A DNA stretch of 64,000 nucleotides from NCBI GenBank assembly GCA_037142615.1, contig JBAXAI010000006.1, positions 85,118-149,117 on the forward strand, read 5' to 3'. Shown in pieces: positions 3,936 to 21,196 of this stretch (position 1 is the stretch's first letter; every line of letters starts with the position of its first letter). Below the pieces are notes generated by a model that was not told where the DNA came from, made no database searches, and worked only from the letters and a program-made list of their open reading frames with translations. The position numbers and the translations under genes are program-made. The stretch comes from Spirochaetales bacterium. GTDB lineage: Bacteria > Spirochaetota > Spirochaetia > JABEVK01.

Positions 3936-5390
3936 TCAGCGGGTCCGGAGGAAAAGACTCTTGACCCGCGTGTAGGCGAGCAGGCTTTCGATGCCACCTT
4001 CGCGGCCAAAGCCGCTGAAGCCGATTCCGCCGAACGGAACTTCGATCCCGAAACCGCCAGAGCCGTTAACCGTAACATGGCTGGAGTTCAGCCGGCGCGC
4101 AAAGGCAATCGCCTTCCCCGGATCCTGCGTCCAAAGCTCGGCCGACAAACCATAGACGGTATCGTTGGCGAGGGCCAGCGCGGCTTCCTCATCCCCGTCG
4201 GGATAGGTCAAAATCGCCAACACGGGGCCGAAGATTTCCTGCTGGGCCAACGACATGTGCGTCTCGACGCCCGTGAAGACGGCGGGAGTGAGAAAACTTC
4301 CCTTCGCCAAAGAGGCGTCCACGGGAACTTCGCCTCCAAACTCCAGCCGGGCCCCTTCGTTCTTGCCTCGGGCAATCGCCGCCAGCACTTCCTCCCGTTG
4401 CCGGAAATTGACCAGTGGCCCCATGCGAGCCCCCGAGTGGGAGTGCCCCAACGCGACCTGACGGAAGATCTCTTTGACGACCTTGGTCACCGCAGCCAGT
4501 TGGGAAGCCGGCACAATCAAGCGCGACCGGCAACCACACGATTGCCCTGAGTTGTGGATAATCCCGTTGGCGCAGCCCGAGGCCGCTCGCAAAGCGTCCC
4601 CGTCGGAAAGCACCAGACAGGGCGCCTTTCCACCCAGTTCGAGCGACAAAACCGGTACCAGCGTCGAAGCGGCGGCCTTCAGCACGTCTTGGCCCACCTC
4701 GGCCGAACCGCAAAAGACCAGCCCGTCCAAGTCGCGGGAATGGATGAGCGCGTCTCCAGCCTCCGATCCGTAGCCAAGAACCACGTTGAAGACTCCCGCA
4801 GGAAAGCCGGCCTCGGTGGCGAGGCGTGCAATTTCGAGCGACGAAAGGGGGGTGTCGCGAGCAGGTTTGGCGATCACCGTGTTGCCCGCGGCAAGGCAGG
4901 GCGCCGCCCCCCGGAGAAGGATATCGACCGGGTAGTTCCAGGGAATGATGTGAGCCACCACCCCCACGGGTTCGCGGCGGGTCACGGCAAACTCCCCGCC
5001 CGGGAGAGGAATCTCCCGCCCGTCGAGCTTGTCCGCGTAGCCTGCGAAAAACTCGCAATAGCGGGCAGCGACGCTGATTTCGCCCTTGGCATCGCCCAAA
5101 GGTTTACCGTTTTCGCGGGCCAGCAGCCCGGCCAGGCGGTCTCGGTCTCTCTCGATGAGTTGGCCCAAGCGAAGGAGCCAGCGCCCCCGCTGAGCCGGGT
5201 CGACCCCCGCCCAAGACGGCGCCGTCAGGGCCTTGCGGGCCGCAGCGATCGCAGCCCGAACGTCCTCGGCGCCACCTCGAGCCGCCTTGCCGACAGGACT
5301 CCCGTCCCCGGGATCGAGCACCTCAAACCACTGTCCGTTGGCTGAAGGGCGCTCGTACCCGTCAATCCAGTGTCCCGTCACCTGTTCCAT
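3936..5390 (-). CDS. NAD(P)-dependent aldehyde dehydrogenase (candidate sulfolactaldehyde/sulfoacetaldehyde dehydrogenase)
   Basis: IIPWNYP, LELGGK, GQSC catalytic Cys, EIFGPV, PFGG. Lies directly downstream of yihQ; substrate is inferred from context only. Confidence 0.9.
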   Translation of the reverse strand: MEQVTGHWIDGYERPSANGQWFEVLDPGDGSPVGKAARGGAEDVRAAIAAARKALTAPSWAGVDPAQRGRWLLRLGQLIERDRDRLAGLLARENGKPLGDAKGEISVAARYCEFFAGYADKLDGREIPLPGGEFAVTRREPVGVVAHIIPWNYPVDILLRGAAPCLAAGNTVIAKPARDTPLSSLEIARLATEAGFPAGVFNVVLGYGSEAGDALIHSRDLDGLVFCGSAEVGQDVLKAAASTLVPVLSLELGGKAPCLVLSDGDALRAASGCANGIIHNSGQSCGCRSRLIVPASQLAAVTKVVKEIFRQVALGHSHSGARMGPLVNFRQREEVLAAIARGKNEGARLEFGGEVPVDASLAKGSFLTPAVFTGVETHMSLAQQEIFGPVLAILTYPDGDEEAALALANDTVYGLSAELWTQDPGKAIAFARRLNSSHVTVNGSGGFGIEVPFGGIGFSGFGREGGIESLLAYTRVKSLFLRTR

Positions 5391-5434
5391 AACTTTGCTC
5401 CTCTTTACGGACGCCTTGCGGAGTTCCCGCTTGA

Positions 5435-5462
5435 AGTCTAGCACAGACTCTAGTTATGTCAA
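5435..5462 (-). promoter_or_regulatory. Promoter of the aldehyde dehydrogenase gene
   Basis: Minus strand TTGACA-N16-TAGACT with an extended -10 TG. Confidence 0.5.
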
Positions 5463-5519
5463 CCTGTTATCTAACGTATTTGTGTAACGTGACGTGGCAG
5501 ATTGTCCGGGCGACGTGAC

Positions 5520-7586
5520 TCAGCCCAGCAGGTCACCTGCCTTCAGGAAGGTTTCGAGGTCGGCCGACGCGGCCCGGGTAAAAACGGGAATGCGGCCCAC
5601 GGGCGCCAACACGGTGTAGGTTCGCCCCGGGCCAGTTGCCCCGCCGAACCGCTTGCCCGTCCCGAGTTGAACCCAGTCACCTGCGGGCAGGTACACCTGG
5701 CGACTGCGGTAGCCTTCGCGGACTACCGGCGCGACGAGCAGGTCGGCGCCGAGCATGAACTGGTCTTTGATCGTCCAGCACACGTCGTCGCCCTCAAACT
5801 CCCAAAACAGAGGGCGCATCACGGCGATTCCGGTGGCGGCGTTTTCAGCGATCAGGCGCCTTCGATACGGTGCCAGCGCCTGGAACAATTGGCCAAACCG
5901 AGCCAGGTGGTCCAGCGTTTCGTCGTCGCTGTCGAACTGCCAGTTGTCGCCGGGCCGGTTGCCTTCGTGCGAGCGCATCAGCACCGTGAACGCCGACAAC
6001 TCCACCCACCGCTGGAACAACTCGCGGGTGCGCTTCATGCCAAACAGCGTGGTGTAACCGCCCATGTCGCTGTGATGCAGGCCCATGCCGCACACGGCCA
6101 GCGACAACGCGGCGGGAATCACCGAGATCAGGCCGTCGTCCTCGGACCAGTCGACGTTCTGGTCGCCGGCCCACGCCATGCCGCACCACTTTTGGCTCCC
6201 GGTGTACCCGGCGCGCATAAAGTACAGAATCTCGTCGCGCGCGCCCACCTCGTCGATGGCTTCGCGGTTGATGCGCGCCCAGATGGCCGGCCATTCGTTG
6301 TGCGCCAGCTCGGCAGGGGTGCCGTCGTGCAGCACCACGTCGGTGGGCAGGTACTCGCCAAAGTCGGCCATCCACCCGGCCAGGCCAAACGCGATCAGGT
6401 TGGTCTGGATCACCTTTTTGTACCAAACGCAGGCGGCCGGGAGCGTAAAGTCGACAATACCAGCGTCGAACTCGCCAAAATCGACAAAATAGTCCTCGCC
6501 CTTCCGGTTCTTCACCAGGTAGCCCTTGGCCTGCGCCTCTTGGCACAGCGGTTTGTCTTTCACCACGTAGGGGTTGATGTAGCCGAGGAACCGAACACCC
6601 CGCTGGCGGAGCTTGGGCAGGGCGGCGTCGAGGCCGGGGTAGTGCTTTTCGTCCCATTGCCAGTTCCACATCAGGCGCTTGCCAAAGCTGGTGATCCGTT
6701 GGCCCTGCCAGTCCTGGGCCCAAATGCCCACGACCGGGACCTGGTGCGTTTGCGCGCGTTCCAGCTTGTCGAGGCACACCTGCGTGCCCCCCTGAATGCC
6801 CAGAATCACCCCGTCTTGGGTCCATTCCGGGAGAACAGGCTGGCGGCCCAACAGGTGCGACAGCGATTGGGCACAGGCCTTGAGGGTGGCCCCGGTTCCC
6901 AGCGTCAGGCGCGGGGGAATCTCGTGGAACTCGAGCGCGTGACGGTCGGCCTTCGAAAAGTCGAACACCGCGTAGGCTCGGCTGTCGGCGTGCAGCCAGT
7001 ACCGTGCCGACGACACAAACGTGGGCTGGGGGAAGAACGTCCACCAGTAGTCGCCGCCGGCTTTGTCGAGCACGTCGGCCTTCCACGTGACCCAAGTGCT
7101 CTTGTTGCGGCCCACGCCTTGCTCGCTGGTCCACAGGGGAAACCGCCGGCCACGCAGATCGAAGTGCGAGAACTGCTCGCCACAACCGTAAATATGCTCG
7201 TCGGCACCGGCGTCGAGCTCGAGCCACAACCGGTTCCACCGGGCGTTGGTGCAGCGGGGCAAGACTTCGAGCCGTTGGTGCACGGCTTTCCGGTCGGCCA
7301 CTTCCTGCGGCCGAAACTCCAGGCGCAAGGTGCAGTCGGCAGCGTCGGCGGCAACGCGCGGGAACAGCTCGAGCAGGCCCGTTGCTGCGGTGAACCGCCA
7401 GCCCTCGAGTGGGACCTTCTGAAACAGGTGATCCTGCACCTGAAAGTTGCCCCGGTACATCTGAATGTCGTCCTGGCCTTGGCCCAAAGCGGCGCAAGGT
7501 CGTTGCACACTGTGGCGCAACACAAGCCGACCCTCGAACGACAGTTCGAAGCCTTCGGCGGTTTCGGCGAAATGCAGACCCCTCAT
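5520..7586 (-). CDS. yihQ: Sulfoquinovosidase (GH31, YihQ)
   Basis: WAQDW, SFGKRLMWNW (sulfonate-binding Arg/Trp), GWMADFGEY (nucleophile), WAGDQNVDW, HSDMGGYTTLF (Tyr). These match the YihQ-type SQase motifs. Confidence 0.93.
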   Translation of the reverse strand: MRGLHFAETAEGFELSFEGRLVLRHSVQRPCAALGQGQDDIQMYRGNFQVQDHLFQKVPLEGWRFTAATGLLELFPRVAADAADCTLRLEFRPQEVADRKAVHQRLEVLPRCTNARWNRLWLELDAGADEHIYGCGEQFSHFDLRGRRFPLWTSEQGVGRNKSTWVTWKADVLDKAGGDYWWTFFPQPTFVSSARYWLHADSRAYAVFDFSKADRHALEFHEIPPRLTLGTGATLKACAQSLSHLLGRQPVLPEWTQDGVILGIQGGTQVCLDKLERAQTHQVPVVGIWAQDWQGQRITSFGKRLMWNWQWDEKHYPGLDAALPKLRQRGVRFLGYINPYVVKDKPLCQEAQAKGYLVKNRKGEDYFVDFGEFDAGIVDFTLPAACVWYKKVIQTNLIAFGLAGWMADFGEYLPTDVVLHDGTPAELAHNEWPAIWARINREAIDEVGARDEILYFMRAGYTGSQKWCGMAWAGDQNVDWSEDDGLISVIPAALSLAVCGMGLHHSDMGGYTTLFGMKRTRELFQRWVELSAFTVLMRSHEGNRPGDNWQFDSDDETLDHLARFGQLFQALAPYRRRLIAENAATGIAVMRPLFWEFEGDDVCWTIKDQFMLGADLLVAPVVREGYRSRQVYLPAGDWVQLGTGKRFGGATGPGRTYTVLAPVGRIPVFTRAASADLETFLKAGDLLG

Positions 7587-7588
7587 GG

Positions 7589-8431: not shown

Positions 8432-8440
8432 GGTAGGTTC

Positions 8441-9331: not shown

Positions 9332-9346
9332 AGAGTCCTCCTGAAG

Positions 9347-9379
9347 AAAAAAACGGACCGGTCACACGCCTGACCGGTC
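9347..9379 (-). terminator. Intra-operonic stem-loop with U-tract between the binding-protein and permease genes
   Basis: Minus strand GACCGGTCA-GGCGTG-TGACCGGTC followed by CGTTTTTTT. Confidence 0.65.
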
Positions 9380-9397
9380 ACAAGCTGCGATGAAACT

Positions 9398-10700: not shown

Positions 10701-11438
10701 TCAAACAACCAACATCACGATTCCCGTGACAAACAGCATCGAAAACACGATCTTGGCGAACAGGTCGGAATCGACCCGCCGATGCGCAAACTCCCCGGCG
10801 ATGATGCCGGCAATCAGGAAGGGTGACATCAGGCCCAGTTCGCCCAGCGACTCGGTGGTAAACATGCCCTGCAGGTAAAACTGCGTCATGAGCACGGAAT
10901 TAAGTGTCACCCACAAAAGGACTAACGTCGAGCGGAAGTTGCCTTTGTCGGGTAGCGTGCGGCTGGCGTACAGCACCACCAAAGGCCCTCCCGTGGCAAA
11001 CGCGCCGTGCACAATGCCGCCCAGGAACAGCAGAACCCAGTAAAACGGCGTCGGCAGGCCCTTCGAGGCCCCCTCGCGGGCGGGCAAGAACCGCTTCCAC
11101 AGCTGGTAGCCGGCGCTGAACAAAATGAACACGGCCAAGGCCTTGGTCAGCAGCACCTTGTCGAGCACCTGGTAAGCCCACATGCCCAGCGGCAACCCCA
11201 GCCCGACGAAGAACAGGATGATCCCGAACTCCTTCCAGACGATCTTGCGGAACGCAGTGATCACAAAATACAGGGCCAGCACCCAGGCCAGCACCGCCAG
11301 CAGGAACTTGGCCTTGCCCAACCCCAGCAGCATGCTGACAAAGGGCATGGCGAGCACGGTACACCCGAAGCCGGTGATGGCTTCCAGTCCGTGGGTAACG
11401 AGCACCACGAACCCGGTGACCAGCCAGGTCAGAGTCAT
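10701..11438 (-). CDS. TauE/SafE-family sulfonate exporter (SqwE/SqvE-like)
   Basis: TGFG...AMP, about 8 TM segments, GAFATGGP..V, FRSTL. Confidence 0.88.
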   Translation of the reverse strand: MTLTWLVTGFVVLVTHGLEAITGFGCTVLAMPFVSMLLGLGKAKFLLAVLAWVLALYFVITAFRKIVWKEFGIILFFVGLGLPLGMWAYQVLDKVLLTKALAVFILFSAGYQLWKRFLPAREGASKGLPTPFYWVLLFLGGIVHGAFATGGPLVVLYASRTLPDKGNFRSTLVLLWVTLNSVLMTQFYLQGMFTTESLGELGLMSPFLIAGIIAGEFAHRRVDSDLFAKIVFSMLFVTGIVMLVV

Positions 11439-12604
11439 GTGCGCTTGGCTCCCACCAATTGACGTACGGCTTCGACGCCCATCGGGGGCACGTTGTTGAG
11501 CAGCTTGAAGTCGGTTTGGCACTTGTCGAACAGCTCGGCGAGGCGCGCGTCGGTGAGCACCCCCGCCCCGGCGATATCGGCGAAACGGCACGGCAGACCG
11601 GTGTGCACTTTGAGGCGCAGCAGCTCATCGGCCAGGCGTTTCACCGGCTCGGCGGCTCGAGGCCACAGCTGGTTCGCAACGGCCTCGAGCTTGGGGCGCA
11701 CCCTGGGGTCGACCGCGTTGAACGCAAACACATCCTCGGTGAAAAACGCGCAGGCCGCGCCGTGCGGCACGTGCCATTCCTCGCTGAGAATGAACGACAG
11801 CGCGTGGATGGCGGCCGTCCCGGTGTTGTTGAAGGCCACGCCCGCAGCGCACGCGGCGGCCAGCAGTTCGGCGGTTCCCTCGCTCCTGCCAGCTTTGCGG
11901 GCGTCGTAGGCCGGTTGGAAAAAGCGCAGCAGGTTCACCAGCGCGTCGGTCGCCAGCAGGTCACTGACCGGGGTGGCATTTTTGTTCCACAGGGTTTCGA
12001 GGGCGTGCGTCATGGCATCGTAGGCGGTGCTGGCCAGCAAAGCCGGAGGAATGTCGGCCACCAGCGCCGCTACCAGCAGCGCCAAGTCGGCCTGCAGCAA
12101 CGGGCTGCCCAGCGAGTACTTGCGGCCGCTGCGGGCGGTGTACACGCCGAACTTGGTCACCTCGGCGCCGGTGACACAGGTGGTGGGGACCAGCAACAGT
12201 TTGGCGCCCCGGCGTTCCAGTTTGCGGGTGGCGTGGGGTCCCAGGTAGTCGTCGAGGTCGCCTTCGTGGCCGGCCATGGCACACACGGCCTTGGCGGAAT
12301 CCAGCGCGCTGCCGCCACCGATGCCGAGCACCAGGTCGGGGGCAAACACGCGGGCGTCGGCCACCATGGCCATGATGTCGGCGGTTTGCGGGTTGGGCAC
12401 AATGCGGTCGTCCACGCGCATGCGGGCCGGTTCCACAAACTCCGCCAGCACCTTGTCGAGCAGCGGGAACGGCCTGGGATCTTTGATGAGGAGCACCCGG
12501 GCATCAGTCCGGTTGGCCAGAAAGGCCGTCACCTGGCGCAGGGTAGCGGCGTCGAGGTGGTCGAGCGCCTGAACTTTGGTGGAACTCTGAACGCTGAAAA
12601 GCAT
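11435..12604 (-). CDS. sqwF: Iron-containing alcohol dehydrogenase (SqwF-like sulfoacetaldehyde reductase by context)
   Basis: GIGGGSALDSAK, PTT..TGAEVT, metal ligands DAMTH/AAIHAL/VPHG. Sits between the RpiB-like isomerase and TauE, as in the sulfo-TK cluster. Confidence 0.75.
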   Translation of the reverse strand: MLFSVQSSTKVQALDHLDAATLRQVTAFLANRTDARVLLIKDPRPFPLLDKVLAEFVEPARMRVDDRIVPNPQTADIMAMVADARVFAPDLVLGIGGGSALDSAKAVCAMAGHEGDLDDYLGPHATRKLERRGAKLLLVPTTCVTGAEVTKFGVYTARSGRKYSLGSPLLQADLALLVAALVADIPPALLASTAYDAMTHALETLWNKNATPVSDLLATDALVNLLRFFQPAYDARKAGRSEGTAELLAAACAAGVAFNNTGTAAIHALSFILSEEWHVPHGAACAFFTEDVFAFNAVDPRVRPKLEAVANQLWPRAAEPVKRLADELLRLKVHTGLPCRFADIAGAGVLTDARLAELFDKCQTDFKLLNNVPPMGVEAVRQLVGAKRT

Positions 12605-12613: not shown

Positions 12614-13117
12614 TTATTTGCTCACTACGGGCTTGAACTGTTCGGCTTCGAGCTTGCGCACCTGCTCAAACGCGTTGGTCAAAAAGTCCTTCTTGAACTC
12701 CATCTTCTGGGTGAACTCCATGGCCAACCACGCATCGACAATTTGGCAGCCGAGGAAAGGCGCGGTGATCCAGCCACCCAGCGTGATCACGTTGGCGTTG
12801 TTGACGATTTTGGCGCGCTCGCCGCTGAACACATCGTCGACGACGCAGGCGTACACGCCTTGGTGTTTGTTGGCGACGATGGCCATGCCCTGGCCGGTAC
12901 CGCAGATCAGAATGCCCTTGTGCGCGGCGCCGGATTGAACCGCCGTGGCCACCTTGGGTGCCTGCTCAAAGTACGGCTTGGGCGCATCGGCGCTGTCGAT
13001 ACCGAAGTCCTGGATCTCGAGGGTGGGGTATTTTTCGCGCAGGTGCTTCACGATTTCCTGCTTGAGGGGAAAGCCGGAAAGGTCGCTGGCGATGGCAAGT
13101 TTGATGGTTTCAGACAT
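12614..13117 (-). CDS. sqwI: RpiB/LacA/LacB-family isomerase (SqwI-like 4-deoxy-4-sulfoerythrose isomerase by context)
   Basis: GILICGTGQGMAIVANK, NNANVITLGG. The usual SDH motif reads SDL. Confidence 0.75.
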   Translation of the reverse strand: MSETIKLAIASDLSGFPLKQEIVKHLREKYPTLEIQDFGIDSADAPKPYFEQAPKVATAVQSGAAHKGILICGTGQGMAIVANKHQGVYACVVDDVFSGERAKIVNNANVITLGGWITAPFLGCQIVDAWLAMEFTQKMEFKKDFLTNAFEQVRKLEAEQFKPVVSK

Positions 13118-13144: not shown

Positions 13145-14080
13145 CTATAGACGTTCGACGATTTCCAGGGTGTCCTTGGCGGTGAGGGCAAAGCGGGGTT
13201 GCAGGTAGTCGACCGTGCCCACTTCGCCAAACAGGTCCTTGACCCCTTGGCGGGCAAACTTGACGGCGATGCCGGCTTCCATTAGGTACTCCGCCACGGC
13301 CGAACCCAAGCCGCCGATGGCCTGATGGTTTTCCATAGTGACGACCTTGCCGCACTTGCGGGCCCAGGTGCCGATCAGTTCCGTGTCGAGGGGTTTGAGG
13401 CTCAGCACGTCGATCACGGCGGCTTTGACGCCTTTTTCGGCCAGTTGATCGGCGGCTTTGAGTGCCTCGGCCACCATGAGCACGCCGAGGGCGACCAGCA
13501 GAACGTCGGTGCCTTGGCGCAGCAGTTTGCCCTTGCCGAGCTCGAACTTTTCGCCGGCCGGGTAGAGCGCGGGTGCGGCGCGGCGGGTGAGGCGCAGGTA
13601 CACGCAACCCTGGTGGGCCGCCGCGAGCCCCACCAGCGCCGCCAGCGAAACCGGGTCGCTGGGTTCGATCACCGTGAGGCCGGGAATGACGCGCATCAAG
13701 GCCAGGTCTTCAAACGGCATGTGAGTGCCGCCGTTGAAGGCCGCCATCACGCCGGGGTCGGTACCAACCAGCTTGACGTTCAGGTGGGCGTAATTGGCCG
13801 ACAGGAAAAACTGGTCGTAGGCGCGGCGGCTGGCAAAACACGCGAACGTCGCGGCAAACGGGATCTTCCCGGTGGACGACAAGCCGGCGGCAACGCCCAC
13901 CATGTTGGCCTCGGCGACGCCAATGTTGAACGCGCGGTCGGGGTAGGTCTTGGCGAACACCCCGGTTCCGGTGGCCCTCATCAGGTCGGCCTCGAGAATG
14001 ACGATGTCGGGGTTGGTCTTCGCGAGCTCCACCAGGGTGCCGTTGTAAACCACCCGCATTTCGATCGGTGCGTCTGCCAT
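13145..14080 (-). CDS. sqwH: Transketolase C-terminal subunit (SqwH-like)
   Basis: EADL, GVAEANMVG, FACF, NGGTHM, VYLR, ENH...GGLGSAV. Confidence 0.8.
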   Translation of the reverse strand: MADAPIEMRVVYNGTLVELAKTNPDIVILEADLMRATGTGVFAKTYPDRAFNIGVAEANMVGVAAGLSSTGKIPFAATFACFASRRAYDQFFLSANYAHLNVKLVGTDPGVMAAFNGGTHMPFEDLALMRVIPGLTVIEPSDPVSLAALVGLAAAHQGCVYLRLTRRAAPALYPAGEKFELGKGKLLRQGTDVLLVALGVLMVAEALKAADQLAEKGVKAAVIDVLSLKPLDTELIGTWARKCGKVVTMENHQAIGGLGSAVAEYLMEAGIAVKFARQGVKDLFGEVGTVDYLQPRFALTAKDTLEIVERL

Positions 14081-14093
14081 GGGTCTGCTCTCC

Positions 14094-14918
14094 TTACGCC
14101 AGGGCCGCGAGGGCCTGTTGAACTTGCTCGGCGGTGATGGGCATGTTGTGGCTGGTCACCAGGCCTTCACAGAACGAGCAGCCCTTGCCCTTGATGGTGT
14201 CCATCACGATCATGCTCGGTTGCCCGCGGTGAGCTTTGGCTTCCACCACCGCCCGCTCGAGGGCTTCGAAGTTGTGCCCGTCGATCTGCACGGCATTCCA
14301 GCCAAAAGCCACCCATTTGTCGAGCAACGCGCCTTGGTCCATGATTTCACTCGTCATGCCGTCAATCTGCATCTTGTTGAAGTCGGTGAACGCGATCAAG
14401 TTGTCCAACTTGTAGTGGGCGGCCATCATCGCCGCCTCCCAAACCAGGCCCTCATCGCTCTCGCCGTCGCCGATGATGCAGTACGTGCGGGCTCCCTTGC
14501 CGTCAAGACGCTGTCCGAGCGCAATGCCGCAGGCGGCCGAGATGCCCTGCCCCAGCGAGCCGGTCGACATGTCGATACCGGGGGTTTTGGTGCGGTCACA
14601 ATGCGATGGAAGATTGGTGCCGCCCTTGTTGAGCGTGTGCAGCCAGTCCTTGGGGAAAAAGCCCTTCTGGGCCAGCATGGCGTACAGCGCGGGGCCGGCG
14701 TGCCCCTTCGACAGCACGAACCGGTCGCGATGCGGCAGGTTGGGTTGCTTGGCGTCAAAACGCAGATGGCGATGGTAGACCACCGCAAGCGCGTCGACGA
14801 CCGACATGGACCCGCCAATATGGCCGACACCCAGATGGCCGATCTCGTCGATGGTCAGCCGCCGGACTTCCTTGGCAAGCTCGACCAGTTCCTGCAGTTC
14901 CTTCGGTTCCATGCTCAA
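14094..14918 (-). CDS. sqwG: Transketolase N-terminal (ThDP-binding) subunit (SqwG-like)
   Basis: GHIGGS, DRFVLSKGH, TGSLGQG, GDGE..EG..WEA, N..QIDG, TIKGKG. Start is TTG 14918 or ATG 14912. Confidence 0.8.
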   Translation of the reverse strand: MSMEPKELQELVELAKEVRRLTIDEIGHLGVGHIGGSMSVVDALAVVYHRHLRFDAKQPNLPHRDRFVLSKGHAGPALYAMLAQKGFFPKDWLHTLNKGGTNLPSHCDRTKTPGIDMSTGSLGQGISAACGIALGQRLDGKGARTYCIIGDGESDEGLVWEAAMMAAHYKLDNLIAFTDFNKMQIDGMTSEIMDQGALLDKWVAFGWNAVQIDGHNFEALERAVVEAKAHRGQPSMIVMDTIKGKGCSFCEGLVTSHNMPITAEQVQQALAALA

Positions 14919-14960
14919 AACCCGCCCCCTTGCCCCACTGTCACGTCAGGCCCTCCCTTA

Positions 14961-14989
14961 TATTAAAATCGTTATCGACTTATTGTCAA
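14961..14989 (-). promoter_or_regulatory. Promoter of the transketolase-yihQ operon with operator copy A1
   Basis: Minus strand TTGACA (14984-14989) and TAATAT-like -10. The imperfect palindrome TTAAAATCG-TTAT-CGACTTATT (14963-14984) fills the spacer. Confidence 0.7.
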
Positions 14990-15036: not shown

Positions 15037-16209
15037 ATGGCTTTCGGCACGGTGATCGAACAGCGCAAGACCGCTAAACGCAACCACGTGATCGGTCTTT
15101 TCCGCGAAAAGACGCACCTGTCGAAAGCCGAGGTGCGCCAGCTGTCGGGGTACTCGATGGAAACCCTGATCGGGATTTTCCGCAACCTGGAAGACAGCGG
15201 GCTGCTTTGCCCCAGCGAGGTGGCCGCGGCGCGCCTCAAGGGTCGCCCATCCGAGCGTTACCGGCTCAACCCGCTGGTCGGGCTGTACCTCGGGGTCACA
15301 TTTACCAGCGCGCGTCTGCACCTGATGCTGGTCAACCTTTCGCTGGAACGGCTGAGCTTCCGGTCGGTCGACGTTCCCGATGGCGCGGCACAGGACGAGT
15401 TCGAGCGGTTCTTTACCGCCGAACTGGCGCGCTTCGCGGCCGACAACCAACACCATTTGCCGGCCATCCGCAAGATCGCGTTGGCCCTTCCCGGCCAGGT
15501 GGACCCGGCAACCGGCGTGCTGAGGCACTACGGCCTGATGCCCTCCTGGCGGAACCTGGACCTGGCGTCGGTGGTGACCCGCGTGTTCGGCGCCGTGCCG
15601 CTGGTGGTACGCCACAATATCGCCGGGTACGCGCGCGAGGTGCTTTCCACCCCGGCTTTGCGCGATTTCGACGGCCGCATCCTGTACGTGACCGCGCGCT
15701 CGGGCACCGCGCATGCCCTCCTGCAACAGGGAAAAATCGTGCTCGACAACGGCGAAATGGGGCACCTGCACGTCAGTCAGTCCAACCTGGTGTGCGAATG
15801 TGGGCGCACCGGCTGCCTCGACACCATTTTTTCGCTCAAGGCCATCGGCAAACTGCTGCCCGGACAGACGCTGGGCGACTTTGGCCACCACCTGCGCAAC
15901 CTGGCCGTGGCAGCTCAAGCCGAAGCGCTGGCGCCCCTGGAGACGGCCTACCAGGCCTTTTCGGAAGCCCTGCTCGACCTCTGTGCTGCCACCTCGCCCG
16001 ACCTGGTGGTGCTGTCGGGCGAGCTGCTGGCCGTGCTGCCCGAACCCGTGGCGTGGATCGAACGGTGGCTGGGCCAGCTGTACAACCCTGCCCAGCCGCC
16101 GGTCTGGCTGCCCGAGGACTTTCTGTACCTTCCTTCGGGGACCGAAGCCGCGGCGTTGGGCCTCTGCAGCGCGCTCATGGACGAGGATCTGCAGGGCGGG
16201 ACATTTTAA
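15037..16209 (+). CDS. ROK-family transcriptional regulator 1
   Basis: N-terminal HTH (LSKAEVRQLSGYS), GRP, PGQVD, GEMGH..CECGRTGCL zinc motif. ATG follows AAGGAG; divergent from the transketolase operon. Confidence 0.9.
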   Translation: MAFGTVIEQRKTAKRNHVIGLFREKTHLSKAEVRQLSGYSMETLIGIFRNLEDSGLLCPSEVAAARLKGRPSERYRLNPLVGLYLGVTFTSARLHLMLVNLSLERLSFRSVDVPDGAAQDEFERFFTAELARFAADNQHHLPAIRKIALALPGQVDPATGVLRHYGLMPSWRNLDLASVVTRVFGAVPLVVRHNIAGYAREVLSTPALRDFDGRILYVTARSGTAHALLQQGKIVLDNGEMGHLHVSQSNLVCECGRTGCLDTIFSLKAIGKLLPGQTLGDFGHHLRNLAVAAQAEALAPLETAYQAFSEALLDLCAATSPDLVVLSGELLAVLPEPVAWIERWLGQLYNPAQPPVWLPEDFLYLPSGTEAAALGLCSALMDEDLQGGTF

Positions 16210-16258
16210 TCGTTGTCGATTTTAACCCTTGACAGCCGTGTTGGAACGGGTTGAAGAT
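16204..16258 (+). promoter_or_regulatory. Operator copy A2 and promoter of the DUF4867 gene
   Basis: TTTTAATCG-TTGT-CGATTTTAA (16204-16225), which resembles the 14963 motif, immediately followed by TTGACA (16229-16234). Confidence 0.65.
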
Positions 16259-16264
16259 GCCCGC

Positions 16265-16912
16265 ATGAAATATTTTTCTTGTGAGGACGAGGCCTTCCGG
16301 CCCTACGGCCGAGTGCTCTCCGGGTTACCGACCAGCGGTCTGGTCGATTGGATGCAGGCCCAGGTCAAGATTGCCGAGGGCACCCAGTACCAGCGGAGCG
16401 TCGGTGCCCTCGAGGACCTGCCAGGCCCCGAGCAACTGACCTGGAAGCAGTGGGCGTCGAAGGTGTTTTACGGCTCGTTCCCCGCGCAGGTGGGCTGGGT
16501 GGCCGGGCACAGCCGCAAACTCAACGCGCTGGAGTACCACAAAGCCAGCGAGATCACCGTGGCCACCACCGACCTGGTGCTGTTCCTGGGGCGCCTGCAG
16601 GACCTCCGCGACCACCGCACCTATGATTCCAGCCTTTTGGAAGGGTTCCGCGTTCCGGCAGGTACCGCAATTGAGATTTATTCGACCACGCTGCACTTTG
16701 CGCCCGCCACCCTGAGCCCCGCGGGGTTTCAGGCGGTGATCATCCTTCCCCTGGGGACCAACGCCCCGCTCGAAAAGGTGAACACCCAGGCCGCCGGCGA
16801 GGAAGCCCTGCTGTGGATGGCCAACAAGTGGCTTATCGCTTGTCAGGACTCGATTCCCGCCAAGCGCGGGGCCAAGGTGGGTATCTCGTCCAACCTCGAA
16901 TTGCCCGGCTGA
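16265..16912 (+). CDS. DUF4867-family protein (SftX-like, found in SQ clusters)
   Basis: FRPYGRVL, LNALEYHK.SE, VPAGTAIEIY.TTLHFAP, LP.GTN, NKWLIA. Confidence 0.85.
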   Translation: MKYFSCEDEAFRPYGRVLSGLPTSGLVDWMQAQVKIAEGTQYQRSVGALEDLPGPEQLTWKQWASKVFYGSFPAQVGWVAGHSRKLNALEYHKASEITVATTDLVLFLGRLQDLRDHRTYDSSLLEGFRVPAGTAIEIYSTTLHFAPATLSPAGFQAVIILPLGTNAPLEKVNTQAAGEEALLWMANKWLIACQDSIPAKRGAKVGISSNLELPG

Positions 16913-18033
16913 TCGGCCGGCAGGTCCAAAAAGAACGCTCGCACCGCGATGGCGGCCCCTCCTAAATAGGGAGCGGCCTCGTCGAGCGCCGAATGGCGGA
17001 TCACCGCGGCGGCCTGCGGGTTGGCGGTGAGTTCCACCAATTGGTCGACCAGCAGACCCAGGACCAGCGGGTGGTTGAGAAAGCTGCCGTAAAGCACCAC
17101 CCAGTAGGGGTCGAGCAGCTGGATGGCGTGGTCGATGGCCAGCGCCAAATGCCCCAGCGTCGTCTGGACCAGCTCCTTCACCCGGGCATCCCCGTCGGCC
17201 AGCGCCTGCAGGATCAACGCCGGTGACGCCAGCCCCGTAGCGGCCACCAACGCGGCGGGTGAGGCCAAGGTCTCCAGGCACCCGGTGCGGCCGCAGCGGC
17301 AGACCAGCTTGTTGCCCGGCACCAGCGTGTGACCGATCTCGCCCGAGCGGTCGTGCGACCCGGTGTCGATGCGGTGCTCCAGAATCAACGCCGAACCGAT
17401 GCCCGGTCCGTACTTGAGGAACAGCTGGCGGCCGTCGCCGGGGTTGCCGCCAAAGTCCATTTCGGCCAAGGCCAACGCGCGCACGTTATTTTCCAGGCAC
17501 ACGGGCACACCCAATGCGGCTTCCAGAAGCGCCACCACCGGCACGGGCTGGTCCCACAGGCCGTAGTCGTGCAAGGTGCGCCCCGTTTGCCGGTCCACGC
17601 TTCCCACCACCACCACCCCGACCCCCACAAGCTGTGCCACCGCGAGGTTGTGCGAGGCCGCCAGTTGCAGCAGTGAGGTGGCGACCCGCGCCAGGATTTG
17701 CTCCGGGGTTTCTCCGTCCAGCGGTGGCAGGCGGCTGGAAGCCAGCGGCACCCCATCGAGGCGGCACAGCGCCGTAGTGAGTCCCTCGGTCTCGATGGAC
17801 GCGGCCCCGACAAAAGATCGACTGTAGTCGAGGTCGACGAGAATCTTGCGGCGGCCGGCGCGGTTTTCGACCTCCTCGCCGCGTTCAACCAGCAGGCCGG
17901 CGTCGAGCATCTTGGCCGTCAGAATGGTCACCGCCGCCGGGGTGAGCCCAATGCGCGCCGCGATGTCTTTGCGCGACAAGGGGCCGCTCTTGCGCAGCAC
18001 CCGCAGCACGGCGATCTGACTCAGTAGTCGCAG
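16843..18033 (-). CDS. ROK-family transcriptional regulator 2
   Basis: GPLSRKDIAARIGLTPAAVT HTH, GRR, LENNVRALALAE, GEIGH..CRCGRTGCLE. Start codon uncertain (CTG 18033, GTG about 18009 or TTG 18114). Confidence 0.85.
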   Translation of the reverse strand: MRLLSQIAVLRVLRKSGPLSRKDIAARIGLTPAAVTILTAKMLDAGLLVERGEEVENRAGRRKILVDLDYSRSFVGAASIETEGLTTALCRLDGVPLASSRLPPLDGETPEQILARVATSLLQLAASHNLAVAQLVGVGVVVVGSVDRQTGRTLHDYGLWDQPVPVVALLEAALGVPVCLENNVRALALAEMDFGGNPGDGRQLFLKYGPGIGSALILEHRIDTGSHDRSGEIGHTLVPGNKLVCRCGRTGCLETLASPAALVAATGLASPALILQALADGDARVKELVQTTLGHLALAIDHAIQLLDPYWVVLYGSFLNHPLVLGLLVDQLVELTANPQAAAVIRHSALDEAAPYLGGAAIAVRAFFLDLPADQPGNSRLDEIPTLAPRLAGIES

Positions 18034-19361
18034 ACTTCCATCCCCAACAGCGAACCCAGCACGCGCAGCTCGGCCACCACGTCGTCGTAGATCACCACGA
18101 AGTGCGGTTCCCAACCGTCCTTGACGGCCTTGGTGATCAACTGCTCGGCGTTCATGCGCGGCTGGAACACCAGCGAGGTGCCGCTGAACTGCTGCGGCGC
18201 GTCGAGCACGCTGCCCGGCGACACCAGAAACCGGAAGCTGCCGTCGGGTTTGCGGCCCACGCGGAACACCGTGGCCTTTTCGGCAGGCTTGCAGCCAAAC
18301 TCCATCGTCGGTCCGATTTTACGGTTGGGGTGCACGCCCATGGCAGCGCCGCTGTCGGCGCGCGCCAGCGAGCATGCCGCCGTTCCGCAGTGCCAAAACG
18401 TCACGGTGTTGGCGGCTTCGTCGAGCGAGACGGGGTCGCCGAAAAACACCGCGGCGTGCGACAGCTCGATGCCGATGTACATCGAAATGGCGCCGTACAG
18501 GTCGGCTTCGCAGGCCGCCGCCACGAGGTTGTCGTTGAGCATGCCCAGCACGCCGCACACCGGCGTTCCATAGTCGACGAAGTAGTCGGGCCAGCAACGT
18601 GAGGCCAGGGCTTGCACATTCTTGGACACGACAAAGTCCTTGTAGGCCTTGTACAGGCGCACGTAGGCCTCGACGTTTTCGGCGGGCAGTTTGTCCAGGC
18701 CGACCATTTTGGCGCGGGACTCTTCCCACTCGACGGTCAGGTCGGCGGCGGCGTAGCTTTTGGCCTTGGTCATCAGCTCGCGCGCCTCCACCGACTCGAG
18801 GTTGGCACCGAAGGCGCGCACCACATCGGCGTCGAGCGCGCGGCCAAAGCCGAAACCCTGCGGCGTGTGCCCGATCGAAGCCACGGTGAGCCCGCGCAGC
18901 TGCTTTTTGACGCGGGCGGCACCGATCACGGCCTTGAGGGTGTTGCGCACCTTGTCTTCGCCCGGTCCGCCAAACACGTACTCGAAGTTGGGGCGGTCCA
19001 GGTGGTGCATCAGGTTACCGGCCGAAAACGCCCCGGTGAGCGAGTTCAGCCGCAACCGGCCGCCGTCGATCACCGGTTCTCGCAACGTCCACAACACCAG
19101 CGGGCAGGCGCAGCTTTTCACCACCTCGGTGGCGAAGGCCGAGTTGGCGAAGGTGTTGTTTTGCAGCACCACCAGGTCGGCGTTCAGCGTGTCGAGGTAG
19201 GCCTTGAGGTCGTCGAGCTTGAGCAAGGGACCAGCGGGAACCACGCAGTCGGGGCTCAGCGACTTGAGCAGTTCCACCGAGCGGTGAAACTGCTCGTGGG
19301 CGCTCTCCATGTGAAACGTGGGCACCCCGATGGGCACGTAAGCGAGCTGAAAGGGTTTCAT
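18021..19361 (-). CDS. sqvD: Sulfoquinovose isomerase (SqvD/SftI; L-fucose/arabinose isomerase-like fold)
   Basis: YVPIGVPTF, LREPVIDGGRLRLNSLTG, GHTPQGF, ASRCWPD, ACEAD, WHCG, VHPNRKIGPTM, GWEPH. Confidence 0.88.
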   Translation of the reverse strand: MKPFQLAYVPIGVPTFHMESAHEQFHRSVELLKSLSPDCVVPAGPLLKLDDLKAYLDTLNADLVVLQNNTFANSAFATEVVKSCACPLVLWTLREPVIDGGRLRLNSLTGAFSAGNLMHHLDRPNFEYVFGGPGEDKVRNTLKAVIGAARVKKQLRGLTVASIGHTPQGFGFGRALDADVVRAFGANLESVEARELMTKAKSYAAADLTVEWEESRAKMVGLDKLPAENVEAYVRLYKAYKDFVVSKNVQALASRCWPDYFVDYGTPVCGVLGMLNDNLVAAACEADLYGAISMYIGIELSHAAVFFGDPVSLDEAANTVTFWHCGTAACSLARADSGAAMGVHPNRKIGPTMEFGCKPAEKATVFRVGRKPDGSFRFLVSPGSVLDAPQQFSGTSLVFQPRMNAEQLITKAVKDGWEPHFVVIYDDVVAELRVLGSLLGMEVCDY

Positions 19362-19371
19362 AGGGGTCTCC

Positions 19372-20448
19372 TTAACCGACCAGGTATTTTCGCAGAATCA
19401 GCACGAGTTTGTCGTACCCGGCGTAAAAACCGCGCAGCGTGGCCAAGGTGGCCCCGTAGGTATCAAACTCGGGGATGGTCAGGCCGTCGGGCTCGTACGC
19501 CTGCCGGAACTCGGGGAACTTGTCGAGCAGCGCGGCCAAAAGCGCGGGCGGGACTTCGTCGTTCATCGTGGGCACAATGGCGATGTCGGACGCGTTGTAG
19601 TTCAGCTGCCACTGGTAGGGAATCGTGTGCAGCATGTCGCCGCCGATGAGTTGGGCCAAGTGGTGGCGGTTGCGGTACGCCGCACCCAGCAGTTTGGTGG
19701 TAAACCGGCGTTCCTGGTAAATTCCGTAGGCGCGTTTGATCACCGCCACGCCGCACCAGTCGAGCGCGGCCGGGTCGATCACCGTGCCTTTTTTGGCCGC
19801 GACGTCCTTGAGGTAGTCGTCGGTGCGGCCGCCCATGATAGTGCACACCGGGTTGATTCCCGCGGTGGTGAGGCCTTCGCTCTTGCGGCGCGCCAACCCG
19901 CGCTCCACCGCTTCGGCGACAGAGAGAGCCTGGGCCACCGTGAAACTCACCGTGGCGTTGATGCTGAAGCCGCGGTAGGTGACTTCCTCGATGGCTGCGA
20001 TGCCGGCGCTGGTGGCGGGCAGCTTGATCTGGATATTGGGGGCGAGCGTGCCAAAGTGCAGCGCCTGTTCCACCATCAGCGCGGTGCTGCGATGGAACTT
20101 GGTGTTCGTCTGGATCGAGATGCGTCCGTAGCCCTTGGCCGGGTCAAAAATCGGGAGCAGGGTGCGGGCCCCGTCGACGGCCAGGTGCTCAATCATCTTC
20201 CACGCCAGCTCGTCCTCGGTGGCGTGCGGAAACGCCTTCACCAGCTCGCGGATCACCGGGTCGTACTTGGGCAGTTCCTTTTCGAGCACCGCCTGCACGA
20301 TCAGCGGGTTGGTGGTGGCACCCACCGCGCCGTTTTCGAGGGCGTACGCCAGCTCGGTTTGTGAACAGGAATCCAGCCAGTATTGCGTGGGCGTGGTGGC
20401 CGCCATCTCATGGAGCTTGCTGCGATACGTCATGGTGCCCGGTTTCAC
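19372..20448 (-). CDS. Long-form transaldolase family protein
   Basis: YWLDS, GATTNP, IQIKLP (Schiff-base Lys), INATVSF, MGGR.DD, AAYR. Confidence 0.85.
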   Translation of the reverse strand: MKPGTMTYRSKLHEMAATTPTQYWLDSCSQTELAYALENGAVGATTNPLIVQAVLEKELPKYDPVIRELVKAFPHATEDELAWKMIEHLAVDGARTLLPIFDPAKGYGRISIQTNTKFHRSTALMVEQALHFGTLAPNIQIKLPATSAGIAAIEEVTYRGFSINATVSFTVAQALSVAEAVERGLARRKSEGLTTAGINPVCTIMGGRTDDYLKDVAAKKGTVIDPAALDWCGVAVIKRAYGIYQERRFTTKLLGAAYRNRHHLAQLIGGDMLHTIPYQWQLNYNASDIAIVPTMNDEVPPALLAALLDKFPEFRQAYEPDGLTIPEFDTYGATLATLRGFYAGYDKLVLILRKYLVG

Positions 20449-21128
20449 GGTGCCACCTTGGTCTCGTCCCAGGCTTTGCGGAACACCCCCAACCCATGAT
20501 CGGTGAACGGATGGTGCATCGCGTCCTGGTACACCTGCAGGCCGCAGGTGACGATGTCGGCTCCGGCGATGGCCGCTTCGGCGATCTGGCGTCCGTTGCG
20601 CAACGCCGCGACGATGATTTCGGTTTTGAAATGGTAGTTACGGTACATGGTGACGATGTCGCGCACGTAGTCGAGCCCCTCATCACCGCTGTTTTCCTTC
20701 CAGCCCACGAAGGGCGACACAAACAGCGCGCCGATCTTAGCGATGGGCAAGGCCTGCGACGGCGAAAAGACAAGCGTGACGTTGGTGCGGATGCCCTCTT
20801 TTTCCAGTTGGCGGGCGGCGATGATGCCTTGTTCGGTGCAGGGAATCTTGATCACAAAATGGGGCGACAGGGCGGCGATCTTGCGGCCTTCGGGAACCAT
20901 TTCGGCGGCCTTTTCGAGGTGCGGGTTGATCTCGACCGAGATGGGAAACTGCTTCAGACCGTCGAGCTTGAGCGAGGCCGCCCAGTCGCCCAGCTCACGG
21001 ATTACCGTCAGGAACGGCTTGCCGCTGGCCTGAATGTGGCGGGGGTTGGTCGTCACGCCGTCGATTCCCCAACTCTCGTAGGCATACCGGATCTCTTCAA
21101 TTTTGGCGCTGTCGAGAAAATACTTCAT
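20445..21128 (-). CDS. sqvA: 6-deoxy-6-sulfofructose transaldolase (SqvA/SftT)
   Basis: MKYFLDSA..EEIRYAYE.W.IDGVTTNPRHI..SGKPF, FPISVEINPHL, IKIPCTE, SPFVGWKENSG, FTD.GL..FRKAWD. TTNPRH and GWKE follow Bacillus SqvA as I recall it, not ordinary Tal/Fsa (TTNPSL, GR.DD). Confidence 0.88.
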   Translation of the reverse strand: MKYFLDSAKIEEIRYAYESWGIDGVTTNPRHIQASGKPFLTVIRELGDWAASLKLDGLKQFPISVEINPHLEKAAEMVPEGRKIAALSPHFVIKIPCTEQGIIAARQLEKEGIRTNVTLVFSPSQALPIAKIGALFVSPFVGWKENSGDEGLDYVRDIVTMYRNYHFKTEIIVAALRNGRQIAEAAIAGADIVTCGLQVYQDAMHHPFTDHGLGVFRKAWDETKVAP

Positions 21129-21142
21129 CGGGCCCTCCAGGG

Positions 21143-21196
21143 TATTTGATTAAATCATTTAATCAAATAATAGAGGGGCCTCGAAGGTTCTGTCAA
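21143..21196 (-). promoter_or_regulatory. Promoter of the sqvA-tal-sqvD-ROK2 operon with perfect palindromic operator B
   Basis: TATTTGATTAAAT-C-ATTTAATCAAATA (21143-21169), a perfect 13-bp inverted repeat, overlapping minus-strand TTGACA(21191-21196)-N18-TATTAT. Confidence 0.8.

What the first reader, a model, noticed from the sequence alone, without database searches (positions are those of the whole stretch)
3936..21196. Hybrid sulfoglycolysis locus encoding both the sulfo-transketolase and the sulfo-transaldolase routes
Seen in the sequence: yihQ SQase, an ABC importer, TauE, Fe-ADH, an RpiB-like isomerase and a split transketolase form one operon. A SqvA-like transaldolase, a second transaldolase and an SqvD isomerase form a second operon. 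DUF4867, two ROK regulators and an ALDH flank them. Established: sulfo-TK (Clostridium sp. MSTE9; SqvD, SqwGH, SqwI, SqwF, SqwE) excretes the C2 product isethionate. Sulfo-TAL/SFT (Bacillus, Eubacterium rectale; SqvA/SftT, SqvD/SftI) excretes the C3 products sulfolactate or DHPS. To my knowledge they are described as alternative pathways, mainly in Firmicutes. Inference: this probable spirochaete shares one isomerase and branches 6-deoxy-6-sulfofructose into two routes, harvesting either 3 or 4 carbons and releasing C3 and/or C2 sulfonates. A coupled TK/TAL sulfo-pentose-phosphate-like rearrangement is an alternative.
Basis: partly seen in the sequence, partly recalled or inferred. Interest (0 to 1): 0.85.

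Follow-up and report, generated by a model that had tools for sequence, protein, structure and literature searches.

The report
Spirochaete sulfosugar cluster with two transaldolases
This is a spirochaete's gene set for eating the plant sulfur-sugar sulfoquinovose, of a layout already described in gut clostridia; comparing genomes suggests that its unexplained second transaldolase links the two routes instead of leaving them as separate branches.

Summary
The genes are there as described, in a spirochaete (three FlaA). The headline is not new. Borusak et al. 2024 (PMC11659671) describe this sulfo-transketolase/transaldolase cluster in Faecalicatena, with both transaldolases and the same active-site residues. 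The aldehyde dehydrogenase belongs to a neighbouring module.

What is new is a pattern. Among 79 sqvA loci, the long second transaldolase accompanies the transketolase in 35 and is missing with it in 40; the 4 mismatches lie on short contigs. Sulfolactaldehyde reductase- or dehydrogenase-type genes lie in 47 of 54 transketolase-negative loci and 0 of 39 positive ones. A same-genus genome has the same cluster minus both transaldolases, with the same operator moved onto the isomerase. The long enzyme's other main home is inositol clusters, whose substrate resembles a C5 sulfo-ketose.

Best reading (about 40%): sulfolactaldehyde is recycled through transketolase and the long transaldolase to sulfoacetaldehyde, then isethionate. 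No enzyme was assayed.

The parts
20445..21128 (-). SqvA/SftT sulfofructose transaldolase, 227 aa
   Evidence: Best PDB match BmSF-TAL 8bc3, E 6.5e-99, next family E 6e-47; about 68% identical by my count of the printed match line; D6, E66, K94, N116, S138 and R30, W143, R177
19372..20448 (-). Long transaldolase-family protein, 358 aa; orthologue of Faecalicatena 'F2'; proposed C5 sulfo-ketose transaldolase
   Evidence: PF00923; D26, Q113, K142, N164, T203 match F2 D23, Q111, K140, N162, T201; these and M205, R208, R259 invariant in 44 SQ and 10 inositol rows; overlaps sqvA by 4 bases
18021..19361 (-). SftI/SqvD-type SQ isomerase, 446 aa
   Evidence: Only NCBIfam hit NF048012, 382 bits, below cut-off 700; 68% to the isomerase in the Clostridium sediminicola SQ locus L054
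21143..21196 (-). Sigma70-like promoter (21196-21167) and 27-nt palindrome (21143-21169), candidate ROK operator
   Evidence: 11 of 12 consensus match; perfect 13-nt arms; single site in the genome, 0 in 100 shuffles; 2 mismatches before sftI in G001 and inside Bacillota SQ locus L031
16843..18114 (-). ROK regulator 2; true start unclear, ORF overlaps sftI by 94 bases
   Evidence: PF00480 + HTH; G001 orthologue 56% has an ATG after the sftI stop, the window has none there
16229..16912 (+). DUF4867 (SqvB/SftX, putative mutarotase or ring opener)
   Evidence: PF16161 213 bits; role as proposed in PMC9594981
15037..16209 (+). ROK regulator 1, divergent from the transketolase operon
   Evidence: PF00480; ATG at 15037 after an AGGAG; 63% in G001
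14960..14989 (-). Sigma70-like promoter of the transketolase operon
   Evidence: 10 of 12 consensus match; about 30 bases identical in G001
14094..14918 (-). SqwG-like transketolase, TPP-binding subunit
   Evidence: PF00456; GDGE motif at 150
13145..14080 (-). SqwH-like transketolase, C-terminal subunit
   Evidence: PF02779 + PF02780; R9, A36, D108, R166 as in the Faecalicatena enzyme; groups with same-phylum rows, support 99
12614..13117 (-). SqwI-like RpiB-family isomerase
   Evidence: PF02502; 81% to G358, 68-75% to three further spirochaete sulfo-TK loci; the genome has a separate RpiA
11435..12604 (-). Fe-dependent alcohol dehydrogenase in the SqwF position (probable sulfoacetaldehyde reductase)
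   Evidence: PF00465 + PF25137; metal-ligand D196/H200/H267/H281 pattern (roles recalled); only 31% to a Bacillota SqwF-like protein; same order TK-RpiB-FeADH-TauE in G358 and G001
10701..11438 (-). TauE-family exporter in the SqwE position
   Evidence: PF01925
7589..10708 (-). Sugar ABC importer: binding protein (likely start 10654) and two permeases; no ATPase in the locus
   Evidence: PF13416/PF01547, PF00528 twice
5520..7586 (-). YihQ sulfoquinovosidase (GH31), 688 aa
   Evidence: NF007746 over cut-off; E. coli YihQ 5aed E 2e-238; R304, W307, Y511, D408, D475 align with the E. coli sulfonate and catalytic residues (alignment; residue roles recalled)
3936..5444 (-).
   Evidence: 75-76% orthologues in G001 and G002 precede the SDR and HbpS-like genes; no ALDH hit in 39 TK-positive sqvA loci

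Best explanation
A sulfoquinovose catabolic locus (about 0.92 for this much) built as an isethionate-type sulfo-transketolase cluster plus a two-gene transaldolase cassette. Steps taken from characterised relatives: import, YihQ releases SQ, the isomerase gives sulfofructose (SF), SqwGH and SqwI cut SF in two C2 steps to sulfoacetaldehyde (SAA), the Fe-ADH reduces it, TauE exports isethionate; SqvA turns SF + G3P into sulfolactaldehyde (SLA) + F6P. Inferred, not shown: SLA is not the end product. The transketolase uses SLA as C2 acceptor, as it uses G3P, giving 5-deoxy-5-sulfoxylulose. The long transaldolase moves the C3 unit of that ketose onto G3P, giving SAA + F6P. At the limit 3 SF + 4 G3P give 3 SAA + 4 F6P: four carbons per SQ reach glycolysis as F6P with less load on the pentose-phosphate shuffle. 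The number below is for the whole coupled mechanism.
For: Three-way distribution. sqvA with TK: long TAL present in 35 of 36 loci, the miss being a contig that ends 7 bases after sqvA; sqvA without TK: absent in 54 of 57, the 3 others being whole contigs of 6-8 kb; with 8 kb on both sides 23 have both, 31 neither, 0 one only. TK without sqvA: absent in 10 of 10 SQ-type loci. YihU-like or SftD-like genes in 47 of 54 TK-negative and 0 of 39 TK-positive loci. G001 has the same cluster minus both transaldolases, the operator then preceding sftI. Of 20 long-TAL loci picked by sequence, 10 are inositol clusters, 5 SQ clusters; 8 of 11 such genomes have no IolC over cut-off, and 2-deoxy-5-ketogluconate to malonate semialdehyde is the carboxylate twin of sulfoxylulose to SAA (chemical inference). 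No Dak1 found in this genome, so free dihydroxyacetone has no obvious outlet. Cultures with this layout make mainly isethionate: 5.8 mM with 0.2 mM sulfolactate from 6.9 mM SQ (PMC11659671); Caproiciproducens lacks sftR and sftD and makes no DHPS or sulfolactate (PMC13219744).
Against: No enzyme assay; sulfoxylulose has not been seen. The long TAL keeps both arginines (R208, R259) that bind phosphate in ordinary transaldolases (roles recalled) and has Q113 and M205 where an acid-base Glu or Tyr is usual, so its chemistry is open. Its inositol role is itself only contextual: 3 of 11 genomes have IolC, L127 has a kinase and a class II aldolase beside it, and 4 of 20 loci are in neither context. 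No residue cleanly separates SQ from inositol copies. Caproiciproducens gives only about 7 mM isethionate from 10 mM SQ, so recycling is not complete there. A second Fe-ADH lies in 10 of 39 TK-positive loci and Dak genes in about 10; 3 of 5 TK-positive genomes have 30-36% YihU-family genes elsewhere. The loci are related to each other and are the best 79 of at least 552 hits.
Confidence: 0.42

Rival explanations
1. True bifurcation, as published and: SF is split between TK (isethionate) and SqvA (SLA), and SLA is excreted or turned into sulfolactate or DHPS by unlinked or broad-range enzymes (here the ALDH next door or the Fe-ADH).
For: Small amounts of SL and SLA (pure culture) or DHPS (consortium) were measured (PMC11659671); about 30% of sulfonate is unaccounted for in Caproiciproducens; an ALDH lies 129 bases after yihQ on the same strand.
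Against: C3 products were about 3% or less of SQ; no SLA reductase or dehydrogenase type gene in 39 TK-positive loci; ALDH has its own promoter-like site and another home in the genus; does not explain why the long TAL is always present.
Confidence: 0.22
2. The long TAL works on phosphosugars only: an F6P aldolase (Borusak's suggestion) or transaldolase that regenerates G3P for the two G3P-consuming enzymes. SLA stays a minor leak.
For: Q113 as in aldolase-type enzymes and two retained arginines; glycerol dehydrogenase and DHA kinase genes are co-induced in Faecalicatena and lie in about a quarter of TK-positive loci.
Against: G3P is also needed in sqvA-only and TK-only clusters, which lack the gene; no Dak1 found in G000; no Tyr at the aldolase position (M205 in 54 of 54 rows); an inositol cluster has no need of an F6P aldolase.
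Confidence: 0.24
3. Coupling by another route: a transaldolase adds a C3 unit to sulfoerythrose to give a C7 sulfo-ketose, and TK plus the RpiB-like isomerase work it down, a fuller sulfo-pentose-phosphate cycle.
For: Same co-occurrence pattern; SqvA can use erythrose-4-phosphate as acceptor (PMC9594981).
Against: It needs a pentulose epimerase, and none appears among the protein clusters shared by TK-positive loci; it does not by itself remove SLA.
Confidence: 0.08
4. The transketolase block serves another acidic or phosphorylated sugar and only neighbours a sulfo-TAL operon.
For: The R-A-D-R residue set is not specific: 8 of 18 transketolase loci without SQ genes in view carry it; TK-C is 47%-level similar to many split transketolases.
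Against: TK, RpiB, Fe-ADH and TauE share one operon with yihQ; G001 keeps them with yihQ and sftI and has no sqvA; the genome has separate RpiA and single-chain TK matches.
Confidence: 0.04

Closest known systems
Bifurcated sulfo-TK/TAL cluster of Faecalicatena sp. DSM22707 (Borusak et al. 2024, PMC11659671) and Caproiciproducens (PMC13219744)
   Same: SQ isomerase, SqwGH, SqwI, Fe-ADH, SqvA (F1), long second transaldolase (F2), DUF4867, ABC importer, ROK repressor; same key residues; no SLA reductase or dehydrogenase in the cluster.
   Different: Spirochaete host; two operons, not one; YihQ in place of the NAD-dependent SQase; TauE exporter; Fe-ADH only 31% to the Bacillota type; no glycerol dehydrogenase or DHA kinase; TK and RpiB of a spirochaete lineage.
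Sulfo-TK pathway of Clostridium sp. MSTE9 (Liu et al. 2021; seen only through PMC9594981, PMC12890257, PMC11659671)
   Same: SqvD, SqwG, SqwH, SqwI, SqwF-position Fe-ADH, SqwE-position TauE, YihQ, DUF4867. G001 of the same genus is such a cluster.
   Different: The window adds sqvA and the long transaldolase. No direct sequence comparison with MSTE9 proteins was possible.
Sulfo-TAL (SFT) pathway of Priestia/Bacillus and Eubacterium rectale
   Same: SqvA about 68% identical to BmSF-TAL with the sulfonate residues; SftI-type isomerase; DUF4867; YihQ.
   Different: No SftD or YihU/SftR-type gene, which 47 of 54 TK-negative sqvA loci have; isomerase under the NF048012 cut-off.
Sulfoacetate variant of sulfo-TK (SqwD, SqwKL; Chu et al. 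2023, seen through PMC12890257)
   Same: Closest RpiB and TK-C relatives include spirochaete loci of this type (L223, L226, L237).
   Different: No SqwD/K/L orthologue in G000; Fe-ADH and TauE stand in their place.

Membership tests
Bifurcated sulfo-TK/TAL cluster (Borusak 2024) | [quoted passage not shown] | tested here: met
   definition
Bifurcated sulfo-TK/TAL cluster (Borusak 2024) | Second, long transaldolase with D/K/Q triad and N/T sugar residues (F2) | tested here: met
   D26, Q113, K142, N164, T203 against D23, Q111, K140, N162, T201; 47% to the copy in Faecalicatena contorta locus L066
Bifurcated sulfo-TK/TAL cluster (Borusak 2024) | Growth on SQ with isethionate plus small amounts of C3 sulfonates | not testable with these tools
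   Needs culture
SqvA/SftT sulfofructose transaldolase | High identity to BmSF-TAL with D6/K/E triad and W-R-R sulfonate site | tested here: met
   W143 aligns with W138 of BmSF-TAL
SqwGH sulfofructose transketolase | Split enzyme with RAFDR head-group residues | tested here: inconclusive
   R9, A36, D108, R166 present and in 35-36 of 36 Bacillota SQ copies, but also in 8 of 18 loci with no SQ gene in view; the Phe of the motif was not located; context decides
SqwI sulfoerythrose isomerase | RpiB-family gene directly after sqwH in an SQ cluster | tested here: met
   separate RpiA in the genome
SqwF sulfoacetaldehyde reductase | Orthology to characterised SqwF | tested here: inconclusive
   31% to a Bacillota SqwF-like protein; NF050025 SarD 131 bits, cut-off 700; position conserved in G001 and G358
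SftI/SqvD SQ isomerase | NCBIfam NF048012 curated cut-off (700 bits) | tested here: not met
   382 bits; another isomerase from a Bacillota SQ locus also fails with 208, a Bacillus one passes with 841, so the model covers the Bacillus subfamily; it works like SftI by context
YihQ sulfoquinovosidase | GH31 with NF007746 over cut-off and the sulfonate-binding residues | tested here: met
   (residue roles recalled)
Sulfo-TAL (SFT) pathway, complete | SLA reductase (YihU/SftR) or SLA dehydrogenase (SftD/SlaB) | tested here: not met
   No YihU-type hit in the genome at E 1e-6; best PF03446 match reads as 6-phosphogluconate dehydrogenase; ALDHs 27-32% to an SftD-like query
Sulfoacetate variant of sulfo-TK | SqwD and SqwKL | tested here: not met
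   Best hits 23% and 27%, none for SqwK

The most novel reading that the evidence does not exclude
The published 'bifurcated' pathway is a coupled sulfo-pentose shuffle. SqvA makes sulfolactaldehyde, SqwGH extends it to 5-deoxy-5-sulfoxylulose, and the long transaldolase, recruited more than once from a family that cleaves unphosphorylated 2-deoxy-5-ketogluconate in inositol clusters lacking IolC, returns it as sulfoacetaldehyde. That would name a new sulfosugar, a new enzyme activity, the missing fate of SLA in Faecalicatena and Caproiciproducens, and a missing step of kinase-free inositol catabolism.
Probability: 0.38. Interest if true: 0.7.

Novelty: new member of a known kind. Interest (0 to 1): 0.42.

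Why it matters
The dual cluster itself is published, so finding it in a spirochaete only widens its range. The value lies in an open point of two recent papers: why these clusters keep and express SqvA but have no enzyme to dispose of its product, and what the second transaldolase does. The distribution found here, with a same-genus pair differing by exactly the two transaldolases, turns that into a three-enzyme test. If right, these gut and sediment anaerobes send nearly all SQ sulfur to isethionate, which decides which sulfide-producing partners they feed, and genome surveys should stop scoring them as C3-sulfonate producers.

Tried and rejected
ALDH as SftD/SlaB: rejected (32% identity, other home in the genus). 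RAFDR residues as proof of sulfo-specificity: rejected as diagnostic. Whole cluster as one recent transfer from Bacillota: rejected; TK-C and RpiB group with same-phylum rows while SqvA and SftI have their best hits outside the phylum (72%, 68%), and GC3 of the cluster genes is 0.80-0.87 throughout (the ROK1 row of that call was out of frame and is not used). I built no tree for SqvA or SftI, so a donor is not shown. Gain or loss of the cassette: undecided; sqvA was found in 0 of 40 relatives at orthologue level, which favours gain, but L005 has the same order sqvA-longTAL-sftI with a 65% isomerase, which allows loss in G001. Residues that separate SQ from inositol long TALs: only two weak columns. 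Long-TAL tree: only the quick search finished; the window's row is long, so its place beside spirochaete inositol copies (support 98) is unsure. Structure prediction from the single sequence failed (pLDDT 41.8) and was not used; no fold search was run. The Atlas gave only unnamed transaldolase clusters; no solved structure of the long family (best E 5e-18). Literature searches for an inositol transaldolase gave 0, 1 and 1 unrelated papers; passages of three inositol papers name no transaldolase. The supplement of PMC11659671 (Table S7, origin of its 21 clusters) could not be read, so a spirochaete may already be listed there. No complex prediction or read mapping was run.


Full report
Observation. 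One minus-strand operon runs TK-N, TK-C, RpiB, Fe-ADH, TauE, binding protein, two permeases, yihQ, with gaps of -4 to 66 bases. A second runs 227-aa transaldolase, 358-aa transaldolase, isomerase, ROK. A ROK gene and DUF4867 lie between on the plus strand. Each operon has a sigma70-like site (5 sites found against 2.9 expected, so weak alone). A 27-nt palindrome at 21143-21169 is unique in the genome and absent from 100 shuffles. The host has three FlaA genes over cut-off, against none in 14 controls: a spirochaete. There is no ABC ATPase in the locus.

Identity of the enzymes. YihQ passes its NCBIfam cut-off and aligns with E. coli YihQ at E 2e-238. The short transaldolase is SqvA: BmSF-TAL at E 6.5e-99, ordinary transaldolases at 6e-47 or worse, with D6, E66, K94, N116, S138, R30, W143, R177. 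TK-C has R9, A36, D108, R166, the positions reported for the Faecalicatena enzyme. That set is not diagnostic: of 27 high-scoring TK-C loci fetched, 9 were SQ-type and 18 showed no SQ gene, 8 of them with R-A-D-R. Context carries the call. The isomerase is under the NF048012 cut-off (382 of 700), as is another one from a Bacillota SQ locus. The Fe-ADH is only 31% like a Bacillota SqwF-type protein, but the order TK-RpiB-FeADH-TauE recurs in spirochaete G358. A separate RpiA exists.

The ALDH is a neighbour. It is 32% like an SftD-type query. Its 75-76% orthologues in same-genus G001 and G002 lie directly before the SDR and HbpS-like genes that open this window, and neither genome has sqvA.

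What is in print. PMC11659671 (I read the abstract, part of the introduction, sections 3.2, 3.3 part 1, 3.4 and the discussion; supplement unreadable) reports the joint TK/TAL cluster in Faecalicatena and 21 genomes, with a short SqvA (F1) and a long second enzyme (F2) whose residues D23, Q111, K140, N162, T201 match D26, Q113, K142, N164, T203 here. It found 5.8 mM isethionate and 0.2 mM sulfolactate from 6.9 mM SQ, ran no enzyme assays, and guessed that F2 is an F6P aldolase. 'Spiroch' does not occur in its main text. PMC13219744 (passages and section 16 part 2) finds the same in Caproiciproducens, notes that sftR and sftD are absent and that SLA may be handled by unknown enzymes, measures about 7 mM isethionate from 10 mM SQ, and reports sulfo-TK in 11.8% of 246 Sphaerochaetaceae genomes. 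PMC12890257 and PMC9594981 (passages) list Spirochaetes for sulfo-TK and say that other acceptors of SqwGH were not tested. PMC12330013 and PMC13436972 (passages) add nothing on the second enzyme. Liu 2021, Chu 2023, Snow 2023 and Frommeyer 2020 I did not read.

Distribution. A scan with SqvA gave at least 552 relatives, of which the best 79 loci were kept; 14 of 400 same-phylum genomes also matched and were fetched. Of the 79, 35 have TK and long TAL, 40 neither, 3 long TAL only (whole contigs of 6-8 kb) and 1 TK only (contig ends 7 bases after sqvA). The 14 spirochaete loci have neither, though only 4 have full flanks. YihU-like reductases (24 loci) and SftD-like dehydrogenases (23 loci), named from Pfam and context, occur in 47 of the 54 TK-negative loci and give no hit at E 1e-3 in the 39 positive ones. 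Ten SQ-type TK clusters without sqvA (L216-219, L223, L225, L226, L235, L237, L269; L225 is only 3.6 kb) have no long TAL in the stretch, nor was one found in those genomes; an sqvA orthologue was not found in them either. So the long TAL appears where SqvA and TK meet and SLA has no outlet. These loci are kin and no independent-contrast test was run. Against: 3 of 5 TK-positive genomes have 30-36% YihU-family genes elsewhere, and 10 of 39 loci have a second Fe-ADH.

A natural pair. G001, same genus, 90% complete, has the whole cluster in the same order at 56-85% protein identity but lacks both transaldolases. The contig runs on for more than 6 kb with unrelated genes. The promoter and palindrome that precede sqvA here precede sftI there. 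The two genes move as a unit between operator and isomerase. G001 is the only one of 40 relatives with this isomerase at orthologue level. Direction is open (see Tried and rejected). TK-C and RpiB group with same-phylum rows (support 99, FastTree), while SqvA and SftI have their best hits in other phyla: the locus looks like a mosaic, but no donor is shown.

The long enzyme's family. Its own paralogue (53%) sits beside MMSDH, IolB, IolG, IolD and IolE. Searches of 400 same-phylum and 300 further genomes of the order of G435 gave 7 and 12 new hits. With the paralogue, 10 of 20 lie in inositol clusters, 1 beside an MMSDH-like gene, 5 in SQ clusters, 4 elsewhere. IolC over cut-off was found in 3 of 11 of the inositol-type genomes (several are incomplete). 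The quick tree needs 3 changes of the SQ label, at least 2 forced by well-supported branches. PMC13617567 (passages) notes that iolC and iolJ are often missing beside iolGEDB; PMC13311982 and PMC8355322 (passages) name no transaldolase.

Mechanism. By established chemistry, the IolB product 2-deoxy-5-ketogluconate is a ketose with a free terminal CH2OH and fructose-like stereochemistry, a possible transaldolase donor that leaves malonate semialdehyde. Replace carboxylate with sulfonate and it is 5-deoxy-5-sulfoxylulose, leaving sulfoacetaldehyde. A transketolase would make that ketose from SLA just as it makes X5P from G3P, and SqwGH already binds sulfonated aldehydes as products. Hence the inferred cycle: SqvA gives SLA, SqwGH gives sulfoxylulose, the long TAL gives SAA + F6P, the Fe-ADH and TauE give isethionate. 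Every step after SLA is inference. The enzyme keeps two arginines typical of phosphate binding and lacks the usual acid-base Glu or Tyr (Q113, M205; roles recalled), so a phosphosugar role stays possible; no Dak1 was found in this genome. A search for sulfoxylulose and related words gave 0 papers and one for SLA, transketolase, acceptor and SqwGH gave 13 papers, 11 listed, of which those I opened do not propose this; subscription journals were not searched.

Verdict. Real locus, correctly read, a new member of a published kind. Interest 0.42: low for the headline, raised by a specific and testable account of the second transaldolase (probability about 0.38, interest 0.7 if true). Earlier notes of this scan: none on this sequence and one on a different split-TK/transaldolase island in another genome.

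Noticed in passing
G000:C2:27685-28737 (L100:9659-10765): Paralogue of the long transaldolase inside an inositol cluster (MMSDH, IolB, IolG, IolD, IolE) in a genome with no IolC over cut-off; candidate for a kinase-free cleavage of 2-deoxy-5-ketogluconate.
   Followed up: partly
window 17940-18130: The second ROK gene has no ATG after the sftI stop, where its G001 orthologue has one; it may start at CTG, overlap sftI, or be damaged, which could leave the sqvA operon derepressed.
   Followed up: partly
window 21143-21169; L269:13788-13814; L031:1574-1600; L024:1469; L073:2070: The palindrome recurs with 2-6 mismatches in several Bacillota SQ loci, often just before the Fe-ADH gene: a candidate conserved ROK operator for SQ clusters. 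These genomes are AT-rich and no chance control was run on them.
   Followed up: partly
window 46-5444; L170, L171: SDR, HbpS-like, ThuA-like, GH88, aldo-keto reductase and ALDH form a separate sugar module; in G001 and G002 the ALDH lies before the SDR, here it is behind and inverted.
   Followed up: partly
L221, L222, L224, L227-L234, L236, L239-L241: Many spirochaete split transketolases 50-64% like this one carry R-(A/S/C)-D-R residues without SQ genes nearby; some lie by FGGY kinases. Substrate unknown.
   Followed up: no
L223, L226, L237: Spirochaete sulfoacetate-type sulfo-TK clusters (SqwD, SqwKL, DASS transporter) share close RpiB and TK with this locus; the end module seems exchangeable with Fe-ADH + TauE.
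   Followed up: partly
G321 and G329 (L110, L113, L127, L128): These genomes hold an sqvA cluster with a YihU-like reductase and, on other contigs, a long transaldolase in an inositol cluster: the raw material for recruitment.
   Followed up: no
L017:10697-12019 and 26 related loci: SQ isomerases fall into at least three subfamilies only 21-37% alike; NF048012 passes only the Bacillus type among the three tested.
   Followed up: partly
window 21278-22471: A 397-aa S1-domain protein (RpsA-like, under all RpsA cut-offs except none passed) is transcribed away from sqvA; not examined.
   Followed up: no
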